From the IMG/VR virus record IMGVR_UViG_2690316131_000018: DNA of 29,394 nucleotides; one strand, written 5' to 3'. Below, piece after piece: positions 9,400 to 23,593 of the stretch. Position numbers and translations under genes: made by a program. The notes under the pieces are model-generated. The model did not search any database, was not told where the DNA came from, and saw nothing but the letters and a program-made list of their open reading frames with translations. Source of the stretch: a virus (Duplodnaviria > Heunggongvirae > Uroviricota > Caudoviricetes). Position 1 is the first letter of the stretch; every line of letters starts with the position of its first letter.

Positions 9400-10392
9400 T
9401 TACACCACGCGGGCTTCTGTTTCCAGAAGCGCATCAGTTTCACGGATTGGTACACCACGGAATGAAGTCCACCACTCGCCTTCAGTCTCTTTTACGCTGA
9501 TAGCCAGAGATGTTTTCTCCAGAGATTGCAGATCAAGAGCCTGGCCTACAGTGCGGTTCATGTAGAACACCGGGCGGCCCATTCCACGGTTTGGAATGCG
9601 ATGCAGTGCTTTAACCATCAACTTCGCAATATTTGCGGCAGAGGAAGGTTCTGAAAGATTGCTGACATCGATGTTTGCAATGCGAACAACATAACGCCAG
9701 TCACGCAGAGCAAGTCCGTTGTCCCATTTGTAATGGGTGCGATAGCCTTCGTACTTGCCGCCATTAGCATCTTCCAGTGTCACCTGGCCTTTATCTTCCA
9801 TCTGGATGCCAGCCTTCTGCCCTTTCGGGAAGATGCCATGCACGGTGTTTTCGCCCCACACCACTAACCAGATTGAGGTGTTATCTGTACCCGTGCCACC
9901 AGCATCAATGATGTTCTGAGCATTACCCGCAGACAGGCTGGAATAGCGGGAGGACAGTCCCATAAACTGCTGAGGGTTAACGCTGGAATCACCATAAAAC
10001 AGCGTCTGCGCCATCTGCTGATTCATCGCTTCAATAAATGCGCGGTCTTCAGACAGGCGGAATTCAGCGGTATTGCCGTTCAGATCAGCCAGTGACTTAT
10101 CGACTTCAGCATAGGTTTCCAGCATGCCAACGGAATCGGTTACCTGCACTGTGGTTGATTTGCTTGGCTGTACGCCATAGTTCAGCAAACGCCATGTAGC
10201 TGAAGGTAAACCAGAACGAATGGTGGTTCGGTGTCCGGTAGGAAGGTTCCCTTCGACAAAAGGCATATCCTGAAGGATCGGGTTAGTTTGACCGAGAAGC
10301 TCGATAATCTTATCGACTTTCCCGTTTGGATCGACGCGCTTACCCCAGTCAGCCAGCGTTAGCGCAGTTAAGCCTTTAACAGACATTGTCAT
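9400..10392 (-). CDS. major capsid protein
   Basis: 330-aa ORF following the scaffold gene, in the order portal-scaffold-capsid. Start is probably the ATG at 10386, which has better spacing from the GAGAGGAA ribosome-binding site. Confidence 0.7.
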   Translation of the reverse strand: MTMSVKGLTALTLADWGKRVDPNGKVDKIIELLGQTNPILQDMPFVEGNLPTGHRTTIRSGLPSATWRLLNYGVQPSKSTTVQVTDSVGMLETYAEVDKSLADLNGNTAEFRLSEDRAFIEAMNQQMAQTLFYGDSSVNPQQFMGLSSRYSSLSAGNAQNIIDAGGTGTDNTSIWLVVWGENTVHGIFPKGQKAGIQMEDKGQVTLEDANGGKYEGYRTHYKWDNGLALRDWRYVVRIANIDVSNLSEPSSAANIAKLMVKALHRIPNRGMGRPVFYMNRTVGQALDLQSLEKTSLAISVKETEGEWWTSFRGVPIRETDALLETEARVV

Positions 10393-11102: not shown

Positions 11103-11395
11103 TCCTGTTCACTGGCCTCTTTGGCCATCTTCAAATACTGTTCAGGGCAATGCGCCATAACGCGCTGAAACAGTTCCAGCGCCAGATTGCGTTGCCCCTC
11201 ATTAAATGCCATTGCCATAGCGTCCATCGGTGAGATGGCGGAAAACACACGGCCTTTCTCCAGCACCGACCAGACAACGCGACGCCCCTGTTCACTGCTC
11301 ATGACAAAGCGAATGTCATCAATTTCACGCTGCGCCATGTCACGTTGCTTACGGGCGTTTTCTTCTTTCAGTTGATCGTCTTCGTAATCTGTCAT
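11099..11395 (-). CDS. hypothetical small protein between portal and scaffold
   Basis: 98-aa ORF with ATG start; overlapping stop/start with both neighbours. Confidence 0.5.
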   Translation of the reverse strand: MTDYEDDQLKEENARKQRDMAQREIDDIRFVMSSEQGRRVVWSVLEKGRVFSAISPMDAMAMAFNEGQRNLALELFQRVMAHCPEQYLKMAKEASEQE

Positions 11396-13071
11396 TGTGA
11401 TTGCCCACCCTGACCACTAACTGCATTCGCCATAGCTGACAACACACTCGGATCCGAAGTTTTAGCTTCGCTTAGCGTCTTGGCCCCCTGTGCCGCCGCC
11501 ATCCCCATCGCCATCATTTGTTGCTGCTGTTGTTGCTGTGCCCGTTGCTGGCGAGCCTGCTCAACCTGTTCCTGCGGAACAATGACGGTTGGAGACACTC
11601 CGGACATATCAGCGAATGCATCGATCGCCTGATCAACGTTGAGTTTGTCGAGAGCTTCTGGTTTCGCTTGCGCAAGTTGACCAATGAAGTTGACCGTAGA
11701 CGCCAGACTGGACAGGCCGATAGACTTCTGCGCCTGAGCCATGACGGAAATGTATTCGACCTTCAGGGGCATACCTTCCATCGCGTCAGGCGGTGGCGGC
11801 AGCATGTTTTTACGCACCATCATCGAGAAAGCGCGGTCAATGAGAGGATTAAGACATTCGTCGTTCAGACGCTCCAGAACCGGCCCCAACATCAGAAGTT
11901 TTTCTTCTTTCATTTCGATCACCGCTTCAACAGGCATCGAGCGGGTATTGATGTTCTGCAACATCATGAACAGATCGACAAAGTAGGCGCTGTTAATAAT
12001 TTGGCGAGTGTCCTGAATGTCTGCTACCAGATCTGCTGTACTGGGGTTAACCAGATAAGCAGGCCTGAAACCATCCTGACCAGTAATCTGATCGATATAC
12101 GTGATGTCGCCAGGAAGAAGGGAGGCGCGCTGATTCTTGAGGGAAGTCGGAGCAACCATCGGCGGATTGGTGGCTTTATCAATCAACTGCGACTTGCGCT
12201 TCTGGAGAAGCTGCAATGCCTTAACAGGTCCAAGCGCCAGCATACCCGGGCATGATGATCCATAAACATCTTCGCCGTTAACTTCCCAGCGCGGAGCCAT
12301 AATTGGAAACTCATCGAATCCGGACTCACGCAACAACTTGTCGTTATCGCCGCCAACCTCGTAATAAACCGATTTGAATGGCTTGTTCTTGCTATCCAGC
12401 TTCGATGTATCGCGGTCAATGTTCGGGTAAACCGAATGCATCACTTCGATCCACTTCTCGTAGGTGCCGCTTTCCCACATGCTTTTTACGGATTCGCTGA
12501 CGTTATTTAGCCCGAACTCCTGAACAAGCTGACGAACAGTCATAGAGAACTTGCGAAAACAGGTGTCAACACTGCCACGAGGTGAGTTAGCCAGGTAGTA
12601 ACTGCCTATCGGGAATGGCATTGTGCGAATGATGTCCTCGTCATCCTCCAGCACTGCCATTGCACCAGTGCTGTATGTGCCGAGGCTTCCGTATAACTGC
12701 GGAAGAGACTGGTAGAGATTCGACTTATTGAACATATCGTTCATGCGGTTCTGCACCGCCTCAAGCCACAACTTAACAGGGCCATAATCCATCATTTCAG
12801 GATCTGGCGTAGCCAGGCGAAACCACGGACGCGCGGGGCTTGTGATGCCTGACATCATGCCGCTGGCGAGAGTGCGCGCCGCCATAGTCCCGGTCGAATC
12901 AATAATGCGTGTATTGCGTCGATCGTTACGGTTGACCTCTGAAGTCAGAAAGCGGGAACCACGCGGGTTGATGTAATCACTCAACTCGCGCCAGTGCGGC
13001 TCGAACGACTGACGCTCGCTTTCAAGTTGTGCGAACTGTTTGTTCAATCGCTCTTTAGTTGTTTCCGCCAT
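11392..13071 (-). CDS. portal protein
   Basis: 559-aa ORF downstream of terminase. Gln-rich C-terminus (QQRAQQQQQQQMMAMGMAAAQG) resembles the T7 gp8 C-terminus from memory. ATG at 13071 with CGGAG ribosome-binding site. Confidence 0.75.
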   Translation of the reverse strand: MAETTKERLNKQFAQLESERQSFEPHWRELSDYINPRGSRFLTSEVNRNDRRNTRIIDSTGTMAARTLASGMMSGITSPARPWFRLATPDPEMMDYGPVKLWLEAVQNRMNDMFNKSNLYQSLPQLYGSLGTYSTGAMAVLEDDEDIIRTMPFPIGSYYLANSPRGSVDTCFRKFSMTVRQLVQEFGLNNVSESVKSMWESGTYEKWIEVMHSVYPNIDRDTSKLDSKNKPFKSVYYEVGGDNDKLLRESGFDEFPIMAPRWEVNGEDVYGSSCPGMLALGPVKALQLLQKRKSQLIDKATNPPMVAPTSLKNQRASLLPGDITYIDQITGQDGFRPAYLVNPSTADLVADIQDTRQIINSAYFVDLFMMLQNINTRSMPVEAVIEMKEEKLLMLGPVLERLNDECLNPLIDRAFSMMVRKNMLPPPPDAMEGMPLKVEYISVMAQAQKSIGLSSLASTVNFIGQLAQAKPEALDKLNVDQAIDAFADMSGVSPTVIVPQEQVEQARQQRAQQQQQQQMMAMGMAAAQGAKTLSEAKTSDPSVLSAMANAVSGQGGQSQ

Positions 13072-13085
13072 TTCAATGACTCCGG

Positions 13086-13292
13086 TTACTGACCAAGCAG
13101 CGTTTTACCGCTGGTATTAGCGGTTGATGTGTCGCCCTGAGAACCAGTAAGCAGCGTAGAACTACGACCAGCAGCAGCGCGACGGCGACGTGTTTCTTCG
13201 TCGCGGGCATCAACAACGGCGGCATCCTGCTCCTGTGGTGCTGCCTGAACTTCTGGTGTTGCAGGCACTGATGGTGAGCTACCCATGCACAT
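13086..13292 (-). CDS. hypothetical small low-complexity protein upstream of portal
   Basis: 68-aa ORF with ATG start. Its ribosome-binding/start region (TCAATGACTCCG) nearly duplicates that of the portal gene. Coding status uncertain. Confidence 0.3.
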   Translation of the reverse strand: MCMGSSPSVPATPEVQAAPQEQDAAVVDARDEETRRRRAAAGRSSTLLTGSQGDTSTANTSGKTLLGQ

Positions 13293-13382
13293 ATCAATGA
13301 CTCCGTACGCAATTAAATTATTACCAATTTAACCACATATGATTTATTTATCGTAGGTAGTTGACATTTACCGCACGAATTA

Positions 13383-13397
13383 TTACCTTCAAGGTAA
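13383..13397. promoter_or_regulatory. operator-like palindrome TTACCTTCAAGGTAA, with a TTGACA hexamer at 13361-13366
   Basis: Perfect TTACC-N5-GGTAA in the intergenic region between the portal operon and the tRNA island. A degenerate copy (TTACCAATTTAACCA, 13321-13335) lies ~62 bp away. Confidence 0.45.
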
Positions 13398-13720
13398 CCA
13401 AAGAGCTCATTCCGGTTACTAACCTGACTGGCTTGTCGTTAAATTGAACAGGTGGAGTGAGCTTTTATTTTGAGCAGTACGGCGTATGGCACATGCGACG
13501 ATAGCGGTCTGGATACGTTTAAGGGGGCACCCTCCCTTGCTCGGGCAAACGAACCAGGTAGCCGGAATGTGCAAGTCGAGCGGTTTTATTCCGCGCACGG
13601 GGATACACCATCCCGGCGATTCGGTGTGACGCCTCGGAAGAGACGAGGGTACAACGATGAGAGCATTTATGGAGCCGCGACAAAGTGTGGTGCCTTAACA
13701 GGCTAAGTGCTCTCAGCGTT

Positions 13721-13797
13721 GTGGCATTAGCTCAGTCGGACAGAGCAACCGCCTTCTAAGCGGTTGGTCGCAGGTTCGAATCCTGCATGCCACGCCA
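13721..13797 (+). tRNA. tRNA-Arg (anticodon UCU), phage-encoded
   Basis: 77-nt cloverleaf folded by hand: acceptor stem GTGGCAT/ATGCCAC, D-stem GCTC/GAGC, anticodon stem ACCGC/GCGGT with loop CTTCTAA, T-arm GCAGG-TTCGAAT-CCTGC, discriminator G and encoded CCA. D- and T-arms resemble host argU; acceptor and anticodon stems differ. Confidence 0.85.
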
Positions 13798-13840
13798 GAA
13801 TCACGCCTAAGGACCGTGATGCCAGAAGTTCCAGGTGCTT

Positions 13841-13884
13841 GGCGGTGATGGTTTCCCTTGAAGGGCTATCACCGCCCTTTTTAC
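13841..13884 (+). terminator. rho-independent terminator after the tRNA
   Basis: 9-bp stem GGCGGTGAT / ATCACCGCC with a structured loop, followed by CTTTTT. Confidence 0.6.
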
Positions 13885-13960
13885 AGCAGGACGCCATTGC
13901 GATGACTTCATGCTGTAAACCCGTACAGCCACGGAAGGCATAACTCATTGCTTCCAGTTC

Positions 13961-13985
13961 GCCCGGTTCGCCGGGCATTTTTTTG
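13961..13985 (+). terminator. second rho-independent terminator-like hairpin
   Basis: GCCCGG-TTCG-CCGGGC followed by ATTTTTTT. Confidence 0.5.
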
Positions 13986-14019
13986 CCTGATGACCGCAAA
14001 CTACCTTAAAGGTATAATC

Positions 14020-14838
14020 ATGAAAAAATTCAAGGTAATTAGCATGTTTGAATCGTTCAAAGAGCTGTTTTTATCTACTGCCAATACTGCCGTGAATCGA
14101 GCCAAAAACCCTGTGCTTGGTGCTTTTGTTATGTCCTGGTGCGCCTTCAACTGGAAATCAATTCTTTATCTATTTTTTAGCAAATCAAACATAATAGATA
14201 AAATTTCATATATCTCAGATAACAGCACATGGAAAACTGTTATGTTTTATCCATGCTTATCTGTAATTGCTATCTGCTGCCTATTACCATGGGTAAACAA
14301 TATCATTAACGTATGGCAAGCAAAGCCTCTTGATAATAATGACTCAATCGAAAATCACCTGAAGGCAAGAAAAATCCAGCGTGAAACAAGACTGCAGAGG
14401 TTATTGGCTAAAAAAGATGTTACATACGACAAAGTTAAGACTGGCGCGGAAAAAGACATCCAAGAGATGAAAGAAGAGATTATTCGATCAAAGAATAGTA
14501 TGGGGGAATTGACTGCCGAGTTGAAAGCTAAAGATGACGAATTGAGATCCGCCAGTGCTCAGTTAGCAGCTCTAAATCATTCATTAAAAGAGATATCGGA
14601 AACTCTTGGAAGAATGAATGAGGCATATAAGACCCTCCAAAATGATTTCGACGAATACAAACTCAAATACCCTGAAAAATCTCAAATAAAAAGCCTTGCA
14701 CTTGGCAACGGCCAAACAATTAGCAACTTTTTGGAGCAACACAACTTATCCGGATTAAAATCTGGTAAGCCAAACGTTTTTAATAACTTTGGTGTTCTAT
14801 CTGGATTATCAGGTTTCGAGGATAAAAATAAAGACTAA
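14020..14838 (+). CDS. AT-rich cargo gene: predicted membrane protein with long C-terminal coiled coil, unknown function
   Basis: The track ORF starts at 13948, but the probable start is the ATG at ~14020 (MKKFKVISMF), just after a TATAAT. Two hydrophobic segments near the N-terminus, then a charged heptad-like region. AT-rich versus the rest of the window. Convergent with the terminase gene, stops overlapping. Confidence 0.6.
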   Translation: MKKFKVISMFESFKELFLSTANTAVNRAKNPVLGAFVMSWCAFNWKSILYLFFSKSNIIDKISYISDNSTWKTVMFYPCLSVIAICCLLPWVNNIINVWQAKPLDNNDSIENHLKARKIQRETRLQRLLAKKDVTYDKVKTGAEKDIQEMKEEIIRSKNSMGELTAELKAKDDELRSASAQLAALNHSLKEISETLGRMNEAYKTLQNDFDEYKLKYPEKSQIKSLALGNGQTISNFLEQHNLSGLKSGKPNVFNNFGVLSGLSGFEDKNKD

Positions 14839-16310
14839 GCATATGGATCGTACTCGGTAAGCGCCTTGCCTTGCTGGTTCTGCTGCCCGGGAAGTCGCAG
14901 GCGCTTTGACACCGGGAAAGCAAACGTCAGCAGTAGCGCATCGCCTTTACCAGGAGAACGCCCAAGACGCTCTTTGATATCTTCCTTCGGTTCGATAACG
15001 ATTTTACCGTCCACACGAACTTTGTACTCTGCCGCCGACAGGTCGTCTGCAGTTTCCTGGTCATCCAGCATGCCGCCCAGCCTCAGCCATGTCTTACATG
15101 AGTTGAACATCTCCCCACGCTTGTTAAGCATCTGCGGGTCAGTGGACGCACCGCCGAACGGAACAAGTTGCCATGTACGCCCCCAGCCATCACCGATTGA
15201 CTTCAAACCGGTTCCGTAACCGAAGTCGATGAACACCGCGTCAGCCTGATACTGGTCTTCAAAGTCAGCGATACGCTTCGCCATAATCAGATCGTCAGTG
15301 GTCTTGTTGCCAGTCCACAGCACCTTACTGTGCAGCCCCTGCCGCAGGTATATCGCAGCGTCATCAACACCGGAGTATGCCGGGTCAACGCCGATTATCA
15401 CCGGAGCATGTACCACCTGCGCAGCGGTTACCACCCGTTTCATTGCCTCATCAGTAAGACCGGTAGGGATAAACTGCAATTCAGATGCATCAGGGAATAT
15501 GCCGCGCACACGGATTTTAACGAAGTCGCTGTCTTCCCCGTAGTCATCAACCCATTTCTGCAACTGCTATTTGTTAGTGCCTTCCACCGTCCGGCTGTCA
15601 ATCTGCGCAGTTTTCCAGCGGTGTTTGTATTTGCGGAAACATTCGCGAAAACGCCCGGTGTTACGTGTAGGGTTTCCGAACGCCACCCAGATAATCTCAG
15701 TGTCTTCGTCCGTAAGAGCACCCTCAGCAACTTCCCACACCAGATCCGCAATGTTCGACGCTTCATCAAATACCACGATGATGCGTTTGCGCTCGTTGTG
15801 TAGTCCGGCGAATGCCTCAGTGTTGTGCTCAGACCAGGGTATTGCGTCAGCCCGCCACCGCTTGTCGTGCCCAGGGTCATTGCTGTACATCGCGGTAGCG
15901 GTACAGGTAAACCAGTCTTTCGTGATGGCAAGGTTCGACCACTTGATAATTTCCGGCCAGGTCTTCGTTCGTAGCTGGTTGTCGGTGTTGGCGGTCACCA
16001 CGACCTTACAATCCTCGCAAGTGGACATGCCCCAGTTGATCAGCATTGAGATGAATGCGGATTTACCAATACCGTGACCAGAAGCGCGTGCCAGCATAAG
16101 CGGCTGATAGCGCGTCTCTGGATTCTGCAGGTGATCACGTATCTCTCGGAACGCATCGGCCTGCCACTGACGTGGACCGGTAGCATGTGCCAGTTCAGTC
16201 CCCTCTTCCCCCCAAGGGAACGCATAGAGGGCATAGCCAAGCGGATCGTGAGTGAACCCTGCAATATCTTCGATTAACTGCTCTTCAGGAGATAACGCTG
16301 CATCTGTCAC
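14835..16310 (-). pseudogene. terminase large subunit interrupted by an in-frame TAG
   Basis: ORF 15567..16310 has Walker A (GHGIGKS) and Walker B (IIVVFDEAS) motifs; ORF 14835..15563 has a nuclease-like Asp-rich region. Both are in one frame, separated only by TAG at 15567-15569 plus one sense codon. The second ORF starts at TTG, not ATG. Confidence 0.7.
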
Positions 16311-17017
16311 TGATTACCATCCTGACGTTCTTTGAGTCGCTTCCTGGCTGCTGCTATGCGATCAGCAATTGTCACATTCACATTAACATCCAGGCGTTCT
16401 TTGAATGCGTTGACGTCGACGTGCTTACCGATGAGCTCGAGGTTTTTCACCTTGTCGGGCCATTTCACCTTCTTCAGGATATGCTCGACATCCTCAACAG
16501 AGAGATCCGCCTCGCCATTCTCTTTTTGCAGGGAAGCCTGGGTTGTCTTGATGGTAGCGATATCCATAGCACTGAGAGAGGTACGCCAGACCTTCGGCCA
16601 TTCAGTGATCGGCTTCATCCCGCCGTCATCGTTCAGTATATCCAGCACGTCCATCTGGTCTATTTCCACCAGGCGCATGAGAACGTAATCAGCACTGACG
16701 CGCATTCGTTTGTTGCGCTCCTCCATCAACTCGGCAATCCGTTTTTGAATGCGTTCATCGCGCATCATGACACTGGCTTTAACTGCCGCTGTATTTGGAG
16801 AGAATCCTGCGTTAATCGCTGCCTGAGTCTGGTTTTCAGGCGTTTTGATGTATGACTGGCAATAAGCCTCCTGCATTGCTGTTAGTGGCTTAAATTGCGT
16901 TGATTTGCGTTTATAGGTTTTAGGTTCAGCAGGCATCATAACCACCCTGGTAATTGTTACCGTCGTGGTAATAGTAACATGCAAAATAAAGCCGCCATAG
17001 TTGGCGGCAGTATTCAA
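16307..17017 (-). CDS. terminase small subunit
   Basis: Motif AYCQSYIKTPENQTQAAINAGFS is typical of phage small terminases. Probable start is the ATG at ~16939 (MMPAEPK); the longer track N-terminus would run through a terminator and operator. Confidence 0.65.
   Translation of the reverse strand: MNTAANYGGFILHVTITTTVTITRVVMMPAEPKTYKRKSTQFKPLTAMQEAYCQSYIKTPENQTQAAINAGFSPNTAAVKASVMMRDERIQKRIAELMEERNKRMRVSADYVLMRLVEIDQMDVLDILNDDGGMKPITEWPKVWRTSLSAMDIATIKTTQASLQKENGEADLSVEDVEHILKKVKWPDKVKNLELIGKHVDVNAFKERLDVNVNVTIADRIAAARKRLKERQDGNQ
16957..16971. promoter_or_regulatory. operator-like palindrome TTACCGTCGTGGTAA just upstream of the terminase genes
   Basis: Perfect TTACC-N5-GGTAA between the terminator (16981-17008) and the small terminase start (~16939). 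Confidence 0.45.
16981..17008 (-). terminator. rho-independent terminator between the nin-like block and the terminase genes
   Basis: GCCGCC-N6-GGCGGC hairpin followed on the - strand by TTTATTTTG. Confidence 0.5.
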
Positions 17018-20659: not shown

Positions 20660-21460
20660 TTACTTGATAAATCCTGCCGCCTTTCCTCGCCTGTATTCCT
20701 CCATCAGCCACTGCGCCGGTGTTATTCCACCAAGGGTGGCGGCGTTAGGCATGCACCCGAAACTTCGCCCTGGTGGATGGTAAACGTCTCTCCCTGTGTC
20801 CGGAGGTGTACTCATGGGTTCTGGCTTTGCCTGTATGCTGATCACCGGATCGGGTATCTGCTGTCCGGAAGCCACCTTTTTCGCCCAATCATCGAGCAGC
20901 TTGCGCGCGTGTTTCTCAACCTCAATCTCGCTAAGCTGGCGCTGATACATTGCACGGCGGGTATCACATACGACCCAGTACATAACCGGATGTCGCCACG
21001 GGAATCTTTCGGGACCACCAGGATATAAACTTTTTTCCTTGCTGTACCGGTTAAACTCCGCCATCACATCGTCAATGGTGACGCCAAGAACCATCTTGCT
21101 GTCTTTACACCACTTGATGAATTGCCCAGGCGACGGCCAGAACGGAGATTCACTGGCGCGGGCGTGGCGCATACCAGCAGAAACCTGTTCACGGGTTCGG
21201 ATCCCCCCTTCGGCAAACGCAGCAATCCACTGCTGTTTTGCAGCAACTTCCTGCTCTGGCGTCTTCAGGTTGGTTACCACTGCCGCCGGAAACAGTTGTT
21301 TCAGCTGTTTGAAAAGGGCATCAACAAGCCTCTCTGCTGACATGTTCACCACGTTATCATTGTTGGTGTACTGATGCTCATAACCTGACATGCGAGAAAG
21401 GGCTTCTCCGTCACGGTTTTGTATCGCGGTAAAAACGTTGTTCACAAGAAATCCTCCCAT
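20660..21460 (-). CDS. lambda P-like replication protein (helicase loader)
   Basis: Central region closely resembles lambda P from memory (WIAAFAEGGIRTREQVSAGMRHARASESPFWPSPGQFIKWC; LYPGGPERFPWRHPVMYWVV). Probable start is GTG at ~21445, preceded by GGAGGA and overlapping the O-like stop. Confidence 0.75.
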   Translation of the reverse strand: MGGFLVNNVFTAIQNRDGEALSRMSGYEHQYTNNDNVVNMSAERLVDALFKQLKQLFPAAVVTNLKTPEQEVAAKQQWIAAFAEGGIRTREQVSAGMRHARASESPFWPSPGQFIKWCKDSKMVLGVTIDDVMAEFNRYSKEKSLYPGGPERFPWRHPVMYWVVCDTRRAMYQRQLSEIEVEKHARKLLDDWAKKVASGQQIPDPVISIQAKPEPMSTPPDTGRDVYHPPGRSFGCMPNAATLGGITPAQWLMEEYRRGKAAGFIK

Positions 21461-22257
21461 GCTTCAGGGCTGTTCCTGTGCGGAACGTTGTTATCAGGTA
21501 ATGTTGATTGCTTCTGTCTGCTAATCTGCAGCCTCCTTGCCAGCTTCTGCTCCCACTGTGCCTGATGGTATGCCTTACCCTCAGCCATCCAGTAAATTCT
21601 GAACTCTGCAAGTTCCTGTGCCGTTGGCAGACTGTCCAGGTAGATCCCCTGCAATGAGCTTTTCCGAAGAAAGTCATCTGATGGCTGCCATTGTTCATGC
21701 ATGACAAATTTGCCTAATTGCCCTGGCCCACCAGGAGGAACAAAGTTATTCATCACGGCGTTGTTTGCGCCGGGGTCATGAGGCACAGAATCCCCGCTTT
21801 TTGTCCTGCTCTCCCTCTCTTGGTTAAATGACTGGTTATATGACTGGTTCTGGATCCCGTTTTTGGGATCATTCAACATCCCGTTTTTGGGATCATTCAA
21901 CATCCCGTTTTTGGGTATATTCCCGTTTTCGGTAACATTACCGTTTTCGGGTTCATTGCCCCCCTCCAGGTTGCCTTTAATGTTCCCGTTTTTGGTTATA
22001 TTAAGAGAGAAAACCCGCACTCTTTTTGTCGCTCCCTTTCTCTCTCCGGTATCTGAAATAAGCCCCATTTTCATGAGCGATATAAGCCCGGCCTGCACGG
22101 TTTTTTTATTCAGGCAAGTGTCTTTAACGAGGCGTTCTATGCTGGGGTAGCAGAGGTTATATTCATCGGCTCTGTCAGCCATCGAGAGCAGTATGAGCTT
22201 TAATGATGAGCTACCTGGATCTGTCTCCCAGGCCCAATCTGTTGCATGTCTGCTCAT
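21442..22257 (-). CDS. lambda O-like replication initiator
   Basis: 271-aa ORF with an N-terminal HTH-like region, internal repeats (NGMLNDPKNG) encoded by iterons, and position directly upstream of the P-like gene. ATG at 22257 with GGAG ribosome-binding site. Confidence 0.7.
   Translation of the reverse strand: MSRHATDWAWETDPGSSSLKLILLSMADRADEYNLCYPSIERLVKDTCLNKKTVQAGLISLMKMGLISDTGERKGATKRVRVFSLNITKNGNIKGNLEGGNEPENGNVTENGNIPKNGMLNDPKNGMLNDPKNGIQNQSYNQSFNQERESRTKSGDSVPHDPGANNAVMNNFVPPGGPGQLGKFVMHEQWQPSDDFLRKSSLQGIYLDSLPTAQELAEFRIYWMAEGKAYHQAQWEQKLARRLQISRQKQSTLPDNNVPHRNSPEAWEDFL
21854..22002. repeat. origin-type iterons inside the O-like gene
   Basis: Two tandem 24-bp copies of ATCCCGTTTTTGGGATCATTCAAC followed by degenerate copies. 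Each has an internal inverted repeat (ATCCC...GGGAT) and resembles lambda ori iterons. Confidence 0.65.
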
Positions 22258-23008: not shown

Positions 23009-23593
23009 ATGAAAAGTATCCAGGACGTCCGCAGGCAAAATCTCAACGACTTGATCGACCGTGAATTCAATGGTGTTCAGACGCGGATGGCAGAAAAACT
23101 TGGAACTCAGGCAAATCTGGTAAACCGCTGGGCTCTTGGCAAGAAGGTTATCGGCGACCAGGTTGCGCGAAAAATCGAAGCTGCCGCCAATAAACCCCGT
23201 AACTGGCTTGATATCGATCGCTCGCTTTCTCAGGAAGGTTTTCAGCCTGTCGGACCAAGCGACATTGGTCAACTGGCGGCTCACAACCTGGAACGCTGGA
23301 TGAGCGAAAGCCGCGACCTTTCAACACAGGGAAAACTTCACCGCGCATCTGGCGTCTCCCAGGTGACAATCAGCCGCCTGTTAAACAATGAGGTCAGCGT
23401 TTCCATTTCCACCCTGGAGAATGTTGCATCCGCATTCGGGCGTCACGGCTATGAATTACTGATTCACCCGCACGACCCTGCGACCATCAACTATGACCGC
23501 TCGCGCTACGCATTGTTACCCGAAACCGAGAAAGCAAAGATCGAAAGTTACATTGAATTTGTCATCAACCAGAACGAAAAAAACAAACAATAA
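23009..23593 (+). CDS. prophage repressor-like HTH protein, no obvious autocleavage domain
   Basis: 194-aa ORF with ATG start, divergent from the Cro-like gene. Two HTH-like segments (QTRMAEKLGTQANLVNRWA and ASGVSQVTISRLL). I see no Ser/Lys peptidase motifs. Confidence 0.6.
   Translation: MKSIQDVRRQNLNDLIDREFNGVQTRMAEKLGTQANLVNRWALGKKVIGDQVARKIEAAANKPRNWLDIDRSLSQEGFQPVGPSDIGQLAAHNLERWMSESRDLSTQGKLHRASGVSQVTISRLLNNEVSVSISTLENVASAFGRHGYELLIHPHDPATINYDRSRYALLPETEKAKIESYIEFVINQNEKNKQ

What the first reader, a model, noticed from the sequence alone, without database searches (positions are those of the whole stretch)
13300..14838. AT-rich cargo island (tRNA-Arg, two terminators, membrane/coiled-coil protein) inserted between large terminase and portal
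The island is on the opposite strand to the morphogenesis operon and is visibly more AT-rich than its surroundings. It has its own promoter-like elements, including a palindrome-like site overlapping a TATAAT just before the ORF. The ~273-aa product has two hydrophobic segments and a long charged coiled coil, and I recognise no known family. A moron at this position is a classic location for superinfection-exclusion, abortive-infection or lysogenic-conversion functions. This is the best candidate in the window for an undescribed accessory or defence function.
Basis: partly seen in the sequence, partly recalled or inferred. Interest (0 to 1): 0.8.

Follow-up and report, generated by a model that had tools for sequence, protein, structure and literature searches.

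The report
Swappable phage membrane-protein gene cassette
Between the DNA-packaging and head genes of a phiV10-like E. coli prophage sits a swappable one-gene cassette for an uncharacterised membrane-anchored coiled-coil protein, and its promoter carries the phage's own operator, so it is a good but unproven candidate for a phage-versus-phage conflict gene.

Summary
The described features are real, but the island has two parts. Bases 13300-13984 (tRNA-Arg(UCU), two terminators; GC 0.51) are conserved phage backbone, present even in a relative with an empty slot. Only 13985-14838 (GC 0.367, 4.5 SD below the window mean) is cargo.

The cargo is one gene, most likely 264 aa starting at 14044. It matches PHROG 4780 (function unknown). 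Its N-terminal domain, with two hydrophobic helices, defines a superfamily of about 2,365 protein clusters with no Pfam, NCBIfam, PADLOC, PDB or fold match.

In backbones 95-98% identical to the window, at least four alleles occupy this slot. They share the N-terminal module and differ almost completely in the C-terminal half.

TACC-N5-GGTA occurs 10 times in the window (0.15 expected), including the repressor/cro region, an early-left-type promoter, the tRNA promoter and upstream of the small terminase gene. It abuts the cargo's -10 in 68 of 70 related podovirus loci. The gene therefore appears wired to the phage regulator, probably repressed in the lysogen, which weakens the classic "moron" reading.

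Function is untested. My best inference is an inner-membrane exclusion or abortive protein made on derepression. The prophage's large terminase carries an amber stop.

The parts
13361..13366 (+). TTGACA, the inferred -35 of the promoter that drives the tRNA unit
   Evidence: Read from the sequence. Its position relative to the operator is the same in phiV10. The consensus scan did not call it because the -10 is weak, so this is an inference.
13384..13396 (.). Operator-type palindrome TACCTTCAAGGTA in the conserved backbone. It lies between the head genes, which run leftward, and the tRNA unit, which runs rightward.
   Evidence: The equivalent site is present in phiV10, TL-2011b, phiv142-3 and about 70 related loci.
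13397..13720 (+). Conserved non-coding stretch of 324 nt between the promoter and the tRNA; function unknown
   Evidence: 97% identical in E. coli relatives and 75-83% in Klebsiella and Salmonella phages. No Rfam match. Folding z-score -1.8.
13721..13797 (+). tRNA-Arg with anticodon UCU, which reads AGA codons; part of the backbone
   Evidence: ARAGORN. Rfam RF00005, 73.3 bits. Present in relatives whatever the cargo.
13841..13876 (+). Terminator-like hairpin 1 after the tRNA (14-pair stem followed by CTTTTT); part of the backbone
   Evidence: Conserved in relatives.
13961..13984 (+). Terminator-like hairpin 2 (GCCCGG-TTCG-CCGGGC followed by ATTTTTTT). Its last T is the left boundary of the variable slot.
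   Evidence: The alignment with the empty-slot phage phiv142-3 and with phages carrying other cargo diverges immediately after it.
13985..14838 (+). The cargo cassette: promoter, operator and one gene; GC 0.367
   Evidence: The cassette, including its promoter, recurs with divergent alleles and in lambdoid phages.
13990..14018 (+). Sigma-70-type promoter: ATGACC, 17-nt spacer, TATAAT
   Evidence: Matches 10 of 12 consensus positions. The -35 and -10 are conserved upstream of alleles that share only 25-45% protein identity.
14002..14014 (.). Operator-type palindrome TACCTTAAAGGTA. It fills the promoter spacer and overlaps the -10 by 2 nt.
   Evidence: The motif TACC-N5-GGTA occurs 10 times in the window against 0.15 expected. 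An identical 13-mer lies upstream of the phiV10 integrase gene. The motif is present 42-46 nt before the gene start in 68 of 70 podovirus loci.
14044..14838 (+). Coding sequence of the 264-aa protein, stop codon included. An alternative upstream ATG at 14020 would give 272 aa.
   Evidence: PHROG 4780, E = 3e-137.
14107..14316 (+). Region encoding the conserved membrane module: helix H1 (aa 22-45), a loop, and helix H2 (aa 65-91)
   Evidence: Hydropathy. AlphaFold2 model of the N-terminal domain, pLDDT 81.7. Family signature R19, P23, G26, F28, S31, W32, F35, N36, W37, S46, P70, P82, N85.
14524..14835 (+). Region encoding the hypervariable C-terminal half: variable coiled coil plus a disordered tail
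   Evidence: Alignment A1. Allele comparison in identical backbones. DNA identity to the type-2 allele falls from about 97% to random between about 14350 and 14530.
14835..16310 (-). Large terminase gene, the right flank of the slot. It is interrupted by an in-frame amber codon at 15567-15569 (Gln248, CAG to TAG). Its 3' end overlaps the cargo ORF by 4 nt.
   Evidence: The gene is intact in phiV10 and in other carriers of the same cargo.

Best explanation
Shown:
- The window is a phiV10/epsilon15-like (Uetakevirus-type) E. coli prophage.
- A fixed slot lies where the small and large terminase genes (leftward) meet the rightward tRNA unit. The slot holds interchangeable cargo.
- Here the cargo is a one-gene cassette, with promoter, for a 264-aa protein of an uncharacterised family.
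- The protein has a conserved N-terminal module with two hydrophobic helices. The second helix continues into a long coiled coil. A hypervariable C-terminal half and a disordered tail follow.
- The cassette's strong -10 is fused to the 13-bp palindrome that also lies between the repressor and cro-like genes, at an early-left-type promoter, at the tRNA promoter and upstream of the small terminase gene (and, in phiV10, upstream of the integrase and anti-repressor genes).

Inferred:
- The phage's CI-like repressor (and/or the Cro-like protein) binds this site and keeps the gene off in the lysogen. The protein would then be made immediately on infection or induction.
- It inserts into the inner membrane, with the coiled coil probably in the cytoplasm.
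- The conserved membrane module is the working or anchoring part. The swappable C-terminal half sets which partner is recognised.

Most likely role: a phage-against-phage conflict function at the inner membrane. The protein would exclude a competing phage's infection, or abort it, while this phage is growing. This is functionally like T4 Imm or P22 SieA without being related to them.
For: - Optional and swappable cargo. phiV10 and TL-2011b carry unrelated genes in the slot, and phiv142-3 has none.
- At least four alleles occur in backbones whose flanks are 95-98% identical to the window. Their N-terminal / C-terminal identities to the window protein are 100/99, 92/26, 68/23 and 43/20%. A recombination gradient lies inside the gene.
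- A clade only 25-30% identical occupies the same slot in E. coli and Cronobacter.
- About 64 of 74 IMG/VR loci carrying the family gene have it in this slot.
- The gene is also found as a lone opposite-strand gene between the replication genes and ninB in lambdoid phages, in a Vibrio inovirus, and in a small Serratia chromosomal islet.
- The N-terminal domain is strongly conserved: 2,365 clusters at 50% identity, always at the N-terminus. This argues for a real, selected protein.
- Membrane and coiled-coil architecture.
- Operator motif: 10 sites against 0.15 expected in the window and 10 against 0.27 in phiV10. The sites lie in core-promoter positions.
- The motif is fused to the cargo's -10 in 68 of 70 podovirus loci and absent from lambdoid, inovirus and chromosomal copies.
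- The homologous repressor was shown experimentally to block the lytic cycle in the close relative vB_EcoP_ZX5 (PMC9782041).
- P22 SieA is a precedent. It is an opposite-strand membrane protein gene inside a virion-gene cluster, with several types under 30% identical at one locus (PMC10461980).
Against: - No experiment or homology links this family to any function.
- Nothing identifies the protein that binds the palindrome. Conservation of the site could partly reflect its use as a recombination anchor.
- If the gene is truly silent in the lysogen, it cannot protect lysogens, which is the usual benefit of exclusion genes.
- Copies in lambdoid phages lack the operator and may be expressed constitutively, so the regulation differs between contexts.
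- H1 is only marginally hydrophobic (maximum Kyte-Doolittle score 1.23). The topology, and therefore the compartment of the variable half, is uncertain.
- A hypervariable early protein fits counter-defence equally well.
- No match to PADLOC models beyond coiled-coil noise.
- The family motif was not found in the tested-system sequences of DefensePredictor.
Confidence: 0.4

Rival explanations
1. Classic moron. The gene would be expressed constitutively from the prophage and protect the lysogen by superinfection exclusion, abortive infection or lysogenic conversion.
For: - It has its own sigma-70-type promoter with a perfect TATAAT.
- It lies on the opposite strand, has foreign base composition and is optional.
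- In lambdoid phages the cassette sits between the replication genes and ninB without the operator, so it may be on in those lysogens.
- P22 sieA is a precedent for this arrangement.
- The gene is intact in a prophage whose large terminase is broken.
Against: - In this phage group the promoter's spacer and -10 are occupied by the same palindrome that lies in core-promoter positions at the cro-like and early-left-type promoters and, in phiV10, upstream of the integrase and anti-repressor genes. This predicts repression in the lysogen.
- There is no downstream terminator, which is a defining feature of a moron.
- No match to known defence families.
Confidence: 0.2
2. Early counter-defence or host-takeover protein. 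It would be made on infection or induction and act at the membrane. Its variable C-terminal half would bind and neutralise host or prophage membrane-associated defence or exclusion proteins, or another host target.
For: - The operator-controlled promoter predicts early expression together with lytic functions.
- Hypervariable, modular C-terminus and allele turnover in a fixed accessory slot. From general knowledge, this pattern is typical of anti-defence loci.
- The gene is carried by phages of several types.
Against: - No similarity to any known anti-defence protein.
- From general knowledge, membrane anchoring is unusual for such proteins.
- Lone chromosomal copies exist, for example in Serratia, and the gene is retained in a packaging-defective prophage. 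Neither is easily explained if the protein benefits only a lytically growing phage.
Confidence: 0.2
3. Accessory role in the phage's own cycle rather than in conflict. Examples would be tuning of lysis timing in a holin or antiholin-like way, or anchoring replication or packaging to the membrane.
For: - Two hydrophobic helices followed by a highly charged C-terminal part resemble class II holin topology.
- The gene appears co-regulated with lytic genes and lies next to the packaging genes.
Against: - The gene is dispensable. Relatives with an empty slot or other cargo are viable isolated phages.
- At 264 aa with a coiled coil of about 110 aa it is far larger than a holin (general knowledge).
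- phiV10 has its own holin cassette elsewhere in the genome.
- Extreme C-terminal diversity is not expected for a housekeeping role.
Confidence: 0.1

Closest known systems
P22 SieA (superinfection exclusion protein A of Salmonella phage P22)
   Same: - A single gene with its own promoter, lying on the opposite strand inside the virion-gene region of a temperate podovirus.
- It encodes an inner-membrane protein.
- Several sequence types under 30% identical occupy the same locus.
   Different: - No sequence relationship: hhalign probability below 1%.
- SieA is 162-164 aa with three predicted membrane helices and no coiled coil.
- SieA is expressed from the prophage, whereas this gene's promoter carries the phage operator.
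- The position in the genome differs: between gene 16 and the immI region in P22, against between the large terminase and portal genes here.
T4 Imm (immunity protein, an early exclusion function)
   Same: From general knowledge, not tested here: Imm is a small inner-membrane protein with two hydrophobic helices. It is made early in lytic infection and blocks DNA entry of superinfecting phages. That matches both the timing predicted here from the operator and the predicted location.
   Different: Imm is about 83 aa, has no coiled coil or variable C-terminal half, and belongs to a virulent phage. No sequence comparison was run.
PHROG 4780, with PHROGs 13369 and 35327
   Same: The protein is a full-length member of PHROG 4780 (E = 3e-137, residues 9-272 of the 272-aa ORF against profile positions 1-267 of 275). 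Its N-terminal part also matches PHROGs 13369 and 35327.
   Different: These families are only clusters of phage proteins annotated 'unknown function'. They say nothing about mechanism.
ZorA of the Zorya defence system
   Same: A membrane-embedded N-terminal part followed by a long cytoplasmic helical tail. This is an architectural analogy only, from PMC11946911 as listed and from general knowledge.
   Different: ZorA works with ZorB as a proton-driven motor complex and with soluble effectors, and it is much larger. No homology was detected, and PADLOC matches here are coiled-coil noise only. The protein here is encoded by a single gene.
Morons of lambdoid phages (Hendrix/Juhala definition)
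   Same: An extra gene with its own promoter and deviant base composition, present or absent among otherwise similar phages.
   Different: There is no terminator of its own downstream. The promoter carries the phage's operator, so autonomous expression from the repressed prophage is doubtful.

Membership tests
PHROG 4780 (phage protein family, function unknown) | Full-length match to the family profile HMM | tested here: met
   E = 3.2e-137, 457.6 bits, residues 9-272 against profile positions 1-267 of 275.
Moron (independently expressed extra gene in a phage genome) | Own promoter upstream of the gene | tested here: met
   ATGACC-17-TATAAT matches 10 of 12 consensus positions. It is conserved upstream of divergent alleles. 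This is a sequence match only; no activity was measured.
Moron (independently expressed extra gene in a phage genome) | Own terminator downstream of the gene | tested here: not met
   No + strand terminator follows 14838. The ORF overlaps the large terminase end by 4 nt, and the bidirectional terminator that phiV10 has at this position is missing.
Moron (independently expressed extra gene in a phage genome) | Base composition different from the surrounding genome, and presence or absence among close relatives | tested here: met
   GC 0.367 against 0.492. The slot is empty or holds other genes in relatives with 97% identical flanks.
Moron (independently expressed extra gene in a phage genome) | Expressed from the repressed prophage | not testable with these tools
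   The operator-type palindrome over the spacer and -10 argues against it. No expression data were available.
P22 SieA family | Sequence or profile similarity to SieA | tested here: not met
   hhalign of family alignment A5 against P22 SieA gave probability 0.95%.
P22 SieA family | Blocks DNA injection by related phages | not testable with these tools
   Needs plating and potassium-efflux or DNA-entry assays.
P22/lambda SieB family | Sequence or profile similarity to SieB | tested here: not met
   hhalign of A5 against P22 SieB gave probability 0.5%.
Known anti-phage defence families (PADLOC-DB 2.0.0, 2023) | A specific match to a defence-protein model outside low-complexity or coiled-coil regions | tested here: not met
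   Best hits are to DndD, PbeC, LmuB and JetC at E = 2e-5 or weaker, and all fall in the coiled coil at residues about 92-260. Across 65 family members only 2 have such hits. Systems described after 2023 were not testable.
Class II holin | Two membrane helices with a charged cytoplasmic C-terminus, small size, and a gene located in the lysis cassette | tested here: not met
   Two hydrophobic helices and a charged C-terminal part are present. However, the protein is 264 aa with a coiled coil of about 110 aa, the gene lies between the large terminase and the portal, and the relative phiV10 has its holin, endolysin and spanin genes elsewhere.
tRNA-Arg(UCU) | Cloverleaf structure and anticodon | tested here: met
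   ARAGORN reports anticodon TCT at position 35. Rfam RF00005, 73.3 bits against a gathering score of 29.
Regulon of the Uetakevirus regulator (sites TACC-N5-GGTA) | The motif lies in a core-promoter position and is shared with the phage's immunity-region promoters | tested here: met
   10 sites against 0.15 expected. Their positions relative to predicted promoters are given. The same holds in phiV10 and in 68 of 70 loci. Binding by the repressor itself is not testable here.

The most novel reading that the evidence does not exclude
The cassette encodes the founding member of a new, very widespread family of single-gene phage conflict proteins. In this reading the conserved two-helix membrane module is an effector or blocking device, and a swappable cytoplasmic coiled-coil and tail provide specificity. 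The mobile cassette would also have captured its carrier phage's operator, so that it fires only when the repressor is gone. That would make it an exclusion or counter-defence weapon under the phage's own immunity control rather than a lysogen-expressed moron.
Probability: 0.3. Interest if true: 0.75.

Novelty: new variant of a known kind. Interest (0 to 1): 0.55.

Why it matters
Variable slots in temperate phages have been a rich source of defence and counter-defence genes. This one has several useful properties:
- It is sharply defined: the left edge is the last T of a terminator and the right edge is the large terminase stop codon.
- The backbone is common, found in about 9% of complete E. 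coli genomes.
- It is repeatedly occupied by one uncharacterised superfamily of about 2,400 protein clusters.
- Natural chimeras already exist, with the same N-terminal module and a different C-terminal half. They offer a ready-made test of what determines specificity.

The operator fused to the cassette's -10 gives a concrete, testable regulatory prediction. If it holds, some accessory cassettes are plugged into phage immunity circuits rather than expressed autonomously, and that would change how "morons" are read from sequence. If the protein has no phenotype, the slot is still a useful marker of recombination in this phage group.

Tried and rejected
- **Family and defence libraries.** Pfam, NCBIfam and PADLOC scans of the protein and of 65 distant relatives gave only coiled-coil noise.
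- **Sequence search of solved structures.** Profile searches against PDB sequences gave only coiled-coil or membrane-protein noise.
- **Structure.** The full-length AlphaFold2 model has pLDDT 69.5. The N-terminal model built from a 119-sequence alignment has pLDDT 81.7.
- **Known exclusion proteins.** hhalign against P22 SieA and SieB gave no relationship.
- **Literature.** There are no papers on PHROG 4780 or on this slot. The DefensePredictor supplements do not contain the family's motifs among the tested or predicted sequences that are held, and some of those tables are truncated. Brenes & Laub 2025 and the epsilon15 genome paper are not held.
- **Leader upstream of the tRNA.** No Rfam family and no convincing structure.
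- **Spurious ORF rejected.** The N-terminal domain is conserved in thousands of clusters, which rules this out.
- **Structural or housekeeping phage protein rejected.** The gene is optional among viable relatives.
Full report
**1. What the window is.**
The morphogenesis genes lie on the - strand:
- small terminase at 16307-17017 (Pfam Terminase_2)
- large terminase at 14835-16310
- a 68-aa ORF at 13086-13292
- portal at 11392-13071 (Head-tail_con, E = 1.6e-187)
- a GP7-type major capsid protein at 9400-10392

The right part of the window holds replication genes (lambda-P-like and DnaT-like), a two-HTH repressor-like gene at 23009-23593, YqaJ and RecT recombination genes, and an integrase.

Megablast places the window among phiV10-like (Uetakevirus) E. 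coli phages. phiV10, TL-2011b, phiv142-3 and vB_EcoP_ZX5 have flanks about 97% identical to it.

**2. The observation.**
These features are confirmed:
- tRNA-Arg(UCU) at 13721-13797
- two + strand terminator-like hairpins at 13841-13876 and 13961-13976
- a promoter-like ATGACC-17-TATAAT at 13990-14018
- a + strand ORF ending at 14838

The low GC content is real but confined to 13985-14838. That stretch has GC 0.367, which is 4.5 SD below same-size windows and the lowest in the window. Bases 13300-13984 have GC 0.509.

**3. Backbone and cargo.**
I aligned the window with phiv142-3 (empty slot), phiV10 (cargo p03, 123 aa), TL-2011b (cargo gp23, 115 aa) and EC.W1-9. All are identical through the second terminator (…GCCCGGTTCGCCGGGCATTTTTTT, ending at 13984). 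They diverge from the next base and rejoin at the large terminase stop codon.
- The tRNA and both terminators are therefore conserved backbone.
- The cargo is 13985-14838.
- Other phages have a bidirectional terminator of about 90 bp between the cargo and the large terminase. The window lacks it, and the two convergent ORFs overlap by 4 nt.
- The backbone segment 13300-13984 occurs in 501 of 5,426 complete E. coli genomes. This cargo allele occurs in 37, and alleles with a similar N-terminal half occur in 61.

**4. The gene and its protein.**
Most homologues start at the window ORF's ninth codon, and an AAGG lies 7 nt upstream of that ATG. The ATG at 14020 lies only 2 nt after the -10. The product is therefore most likely 264 aa, encoded by 14044-14838. 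Both the 264-aa and 272-aa versions exist in public annotation, always as "hypothetical protein".

The protein is a full-length member of PHROG 4780, function unknown (E = 3e-137).

In the numbering of the 264-aa protein, the model contains:
- an amphipathic helix at residues 2-20
- a marginally hydrophobic helix at about 22-45, which carries the invariant N36-W37
- a short loop
- a strongly hydrophobic helix from about 63 that continues without a break into a long helix or coiled coil to about 208
- a disordered tail

This description rests.

Across 374 relatives, the mean net charge is +0.9 before H1, -0.6 in the loop and +2.6 after H2. By the positive-inside rule this favours both termini, and hence the coiled coil, lying in the cytoplasm. 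This is an inference and is weakened by the marginal hydrophobicity of H1.

**5. The family.**
A profile of residues 1-118 finds 2,365 clusters (at 50% identity) with E <= 1e-3, and 268 with E <= 1e-10. The domain is always N-terminal, in proteins of about 200-390 aa.

No Pfam, NCBIfam or PADLOC model covers the domain. No PDB sequence, BFVD or PDB fold is related. P22 SieA and SieB are unrelated.

Residues 1 to about 160 are conserved. The rest is essentially unalignable between alleles.

**6. Turnover in the slot.**
About 64 of 74 IMG/VR loci carrying a family member have it in this same slot between the large terminase and the portal. In backbones whose flanks are 95-98% identical to the window, I found four alleles:

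| Allele | Length (aa) | N-terminal identity to window | C-terminal identity to window |
|---|---|---|---|
| Type 1 (window) | 264 | 100% | about 99% |
| Type 2 | 274 | 92% | about 26% |
| Type 3 | 246 | 68% | 23% |
| Type 4 | 201 | 43% | 20% |

- Types 1 and 2 are about 97% identical in DNA up to about 14350. Identity then decays to random by about 14530, which marks a recombination junction inside the gene.
- A clade only 25-30% identical occupies the same slot in E. coli and Cronobacter. In E. coli it sits next to a second cargo gene.
- Elsewhere the gene is a lone opposite-strand gene between the replication genes and ninB in lambdoid phages. It is also found in a Vibrio inovirus, in a Klebsiella aerogenes prophage and in a small Serratia chromosomal islet.
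- A few alleles are truncated.

**7. The palindrome is the phage's operator-type motif.**
The 13-mer TACCTTAAAGGTA at 14002-14014 fills the promoter spacer and shares its last TA with TATAAT.

The degenerate form TACC-N5-GGTA occurs 10 times in the window. The expectation is 0.15, and none of 100 shuffles reached 10. The sites are at:
- 22940 (plus imperfect copies), between the cro-like gene and the repressor gene
- 23652 and 23714, flanking and abutting a TTGACA-17-AATCAT promoter for the leftward early genes
- 22555
- 20547 and 20609; the second lies in the spacer of a TCGACA-16-TAAAAT promoter
- 16958, just upstream of the real small terminase start and after a terminator
- 13384, next to a TTGACA upstream of the tRNA
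- 14002, the cargo promoter
- 5232, inside a structural gene

phiV10 has 10 sites against 0.27 expected. They include one upstream of the integrase gene, with the identical 13-mer followed by TATACT, and one upstream of the Bro-N anti-repressor gene.

Among loci that carry the family gene, 68 of 70 podovirus-type loci keep the exact motif 42-46 nt before the start codon. This holds for all alleles and for E. coli, Klebsiella and Cronobacter hosts. In every case the motif is followed by a -10-like hexamer (TATAAT, TATACT, TAGAAT and similar). The two exceptions differ by one base.

Lambdoid, inovirus and chromosomal copies lack the motif. The unrelated cargo genes of phiV10 and TL-2011b have none.

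The cassette is therefore tied to the carrier phage's regulator. The natural candidate is the two-HTH repressor. Its homologue in vB_EcoP_ZX5 blocks the lytic cycle when overexpressed (PMC9782041). The operator itself was not defined in that paper.

I recall that the epsilon15 genome paper (Kropinski et al. 2007) reported a similar motif as a putative operator. I could not check this, because the paper is not held.

**8. What follows for function.**
The geometry places the site over the spacer and -10. The site sits at comparable core-promoter positions (in the spacer or abutting the -10) at the cro-like and early-left-type promoters, and upstream of the integrase gene in phiV10. This predicts repression in the lysogen and expression on infection or induction. 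That step is inferred, not shown.

Four observations point to a conflict function at the inner membrane:
- The gene is optional.
- Alleles turn over in a fixed slot.
- The C-terminal half is modular and hypervariable.
- The protein is membrane-anchored.

I rank the readings as follows:

| Reading | Probability |
|---|---|
| Exclusion or abortive action against competing phages during the phage's own growth | 0.4 |
| Counter-defence or host takeover | 0.2 |
| Non-conflict accessory role | 0.1 |

None of these is tested. The family was not found among known or recently validated defence systems that I could inspect.

**9. Architecture of the locus.**
The slot lies where the leftward small and large terminase genes meet the rightward tRNA-cargo unit. 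phiV10 has a bidirectional terminator there.

The operator at 13384-13396 lies between the rightward tRNA promoter and the leftward head genes. It could serve both directions: on the - strand it is followed by AATAAT. No -35 was called on that strand, so this remains a suggestion.

**10. Verdict.**
The feature is real and correctly flagged as the most interesting accessory locus in the window. It needs three corrections:
- Only 13985-14838 is cargo.
- The protein belongs to a catalogued but uncharacterised family.
- The promoter palindrome links the gene to the phage's immunity circuit.

I rate the novelty as a new variant of a known kind (a phage accessory-slot gene), with function unknown, and the interest as 0.55.

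Noticed in passing
window 5232, 13384, 14002, 16958, 20547, 20609, 22555, 22940, 23652, 23714 (each site is 13 bp): The palindrome TACC-N5-GGTA occurs 10 times against 0.15 expected. Most sites lie at or next to predicted promoters in the immunity region, near the early-gene promoters, upstream of the small terminase gene and upstream of the tRNA. It looks like the operator set of this phage group. phiV10 also has 10 sites, including ones upstream of the integrase and anti-repressor genes.
   Followed up: yes
window 15567-15569 (- strand): The large terminase gene carries an in-frame amber codon (Gln248, CAG to TAG) that splits it into 247-aa and 242-aa ORFs. The gene is intact in phiV10 and in other carriers of the same cargo. 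IMG/VR locus L035, whose flanks are 100% identical to the window, has the same mutation. The prophage is probably defective in packaging.
   Followed up: yes
window 13397-13720: A conserved non-coding stretch of 324 nt lies between the operator-bearing promoter and the tRNA. It is 97% identical in E. coli relatives and 75-83% in Klebsiella and Salmonella phages. It has no Rfam match and only a weak folding signal (z = -1.8). The short ORFs annotated here in some phage records overlap the tRNA and look spurious.
   Followed up: partly
window 14044-14838 and 13721-13797: Four of the cargo gene's eight arginine codons are AGA and one is AGG. In the morphogenesis genes AGA accounts for 28 of 277 arginine codons. 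The adjacent phage tRNA-Arg(UCU) reads AGA. The numbers are small, and the tRNA is present whatever the cargo.
   Followed up: partly
window 14835-14838; L001 3893-3912: The cargo ORF and the large terminase ORF converge and overlap by 4 nt with no terminator between them. phiV10-type phages have a bidirectional terminator at this position. Convergent transcription would collide here.
   Followed up: partly
window 21864-21907: Two tandem copies of TGGGATCATTCAACATCCCGTTTTTGGG lie inside the DnaT-like replication initiator gene (21442-22257) and encode the repeated peptide PKNGMLND. They look like iterons of an origin inside the initiator gene, as in lambda O.
   Followed up: no
L090 7372-7743 and 8001-8912; L034; L078: The slot can hold two cargo genes at once, here a phiV10p03-like 123-aa gene together with a family member. 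Some loci carry truncated family genes of 62 or 100 aa.
   Followed up: partly
L007 4001-4771 (Vibrio phage vB_VipaK, an f237-like inovirus): A distant relative (23% identity, tblastn E = 2e-5) lies in the variable region of a filamentous Vibrio parahaemolyticus phage, next to the f237 ORF9 homologue.
   Followed up: no
alignments A1 and A6 (C-terminal ends of family members): The disordered tails end in short tips that are specific to each clade. The window's clade ends in K/D-rich tips such as DKNKD. The distant MLDF clade ends in (T/S)x(H/R)N(Q/P). These may be docking motifs.
   Followed up: no
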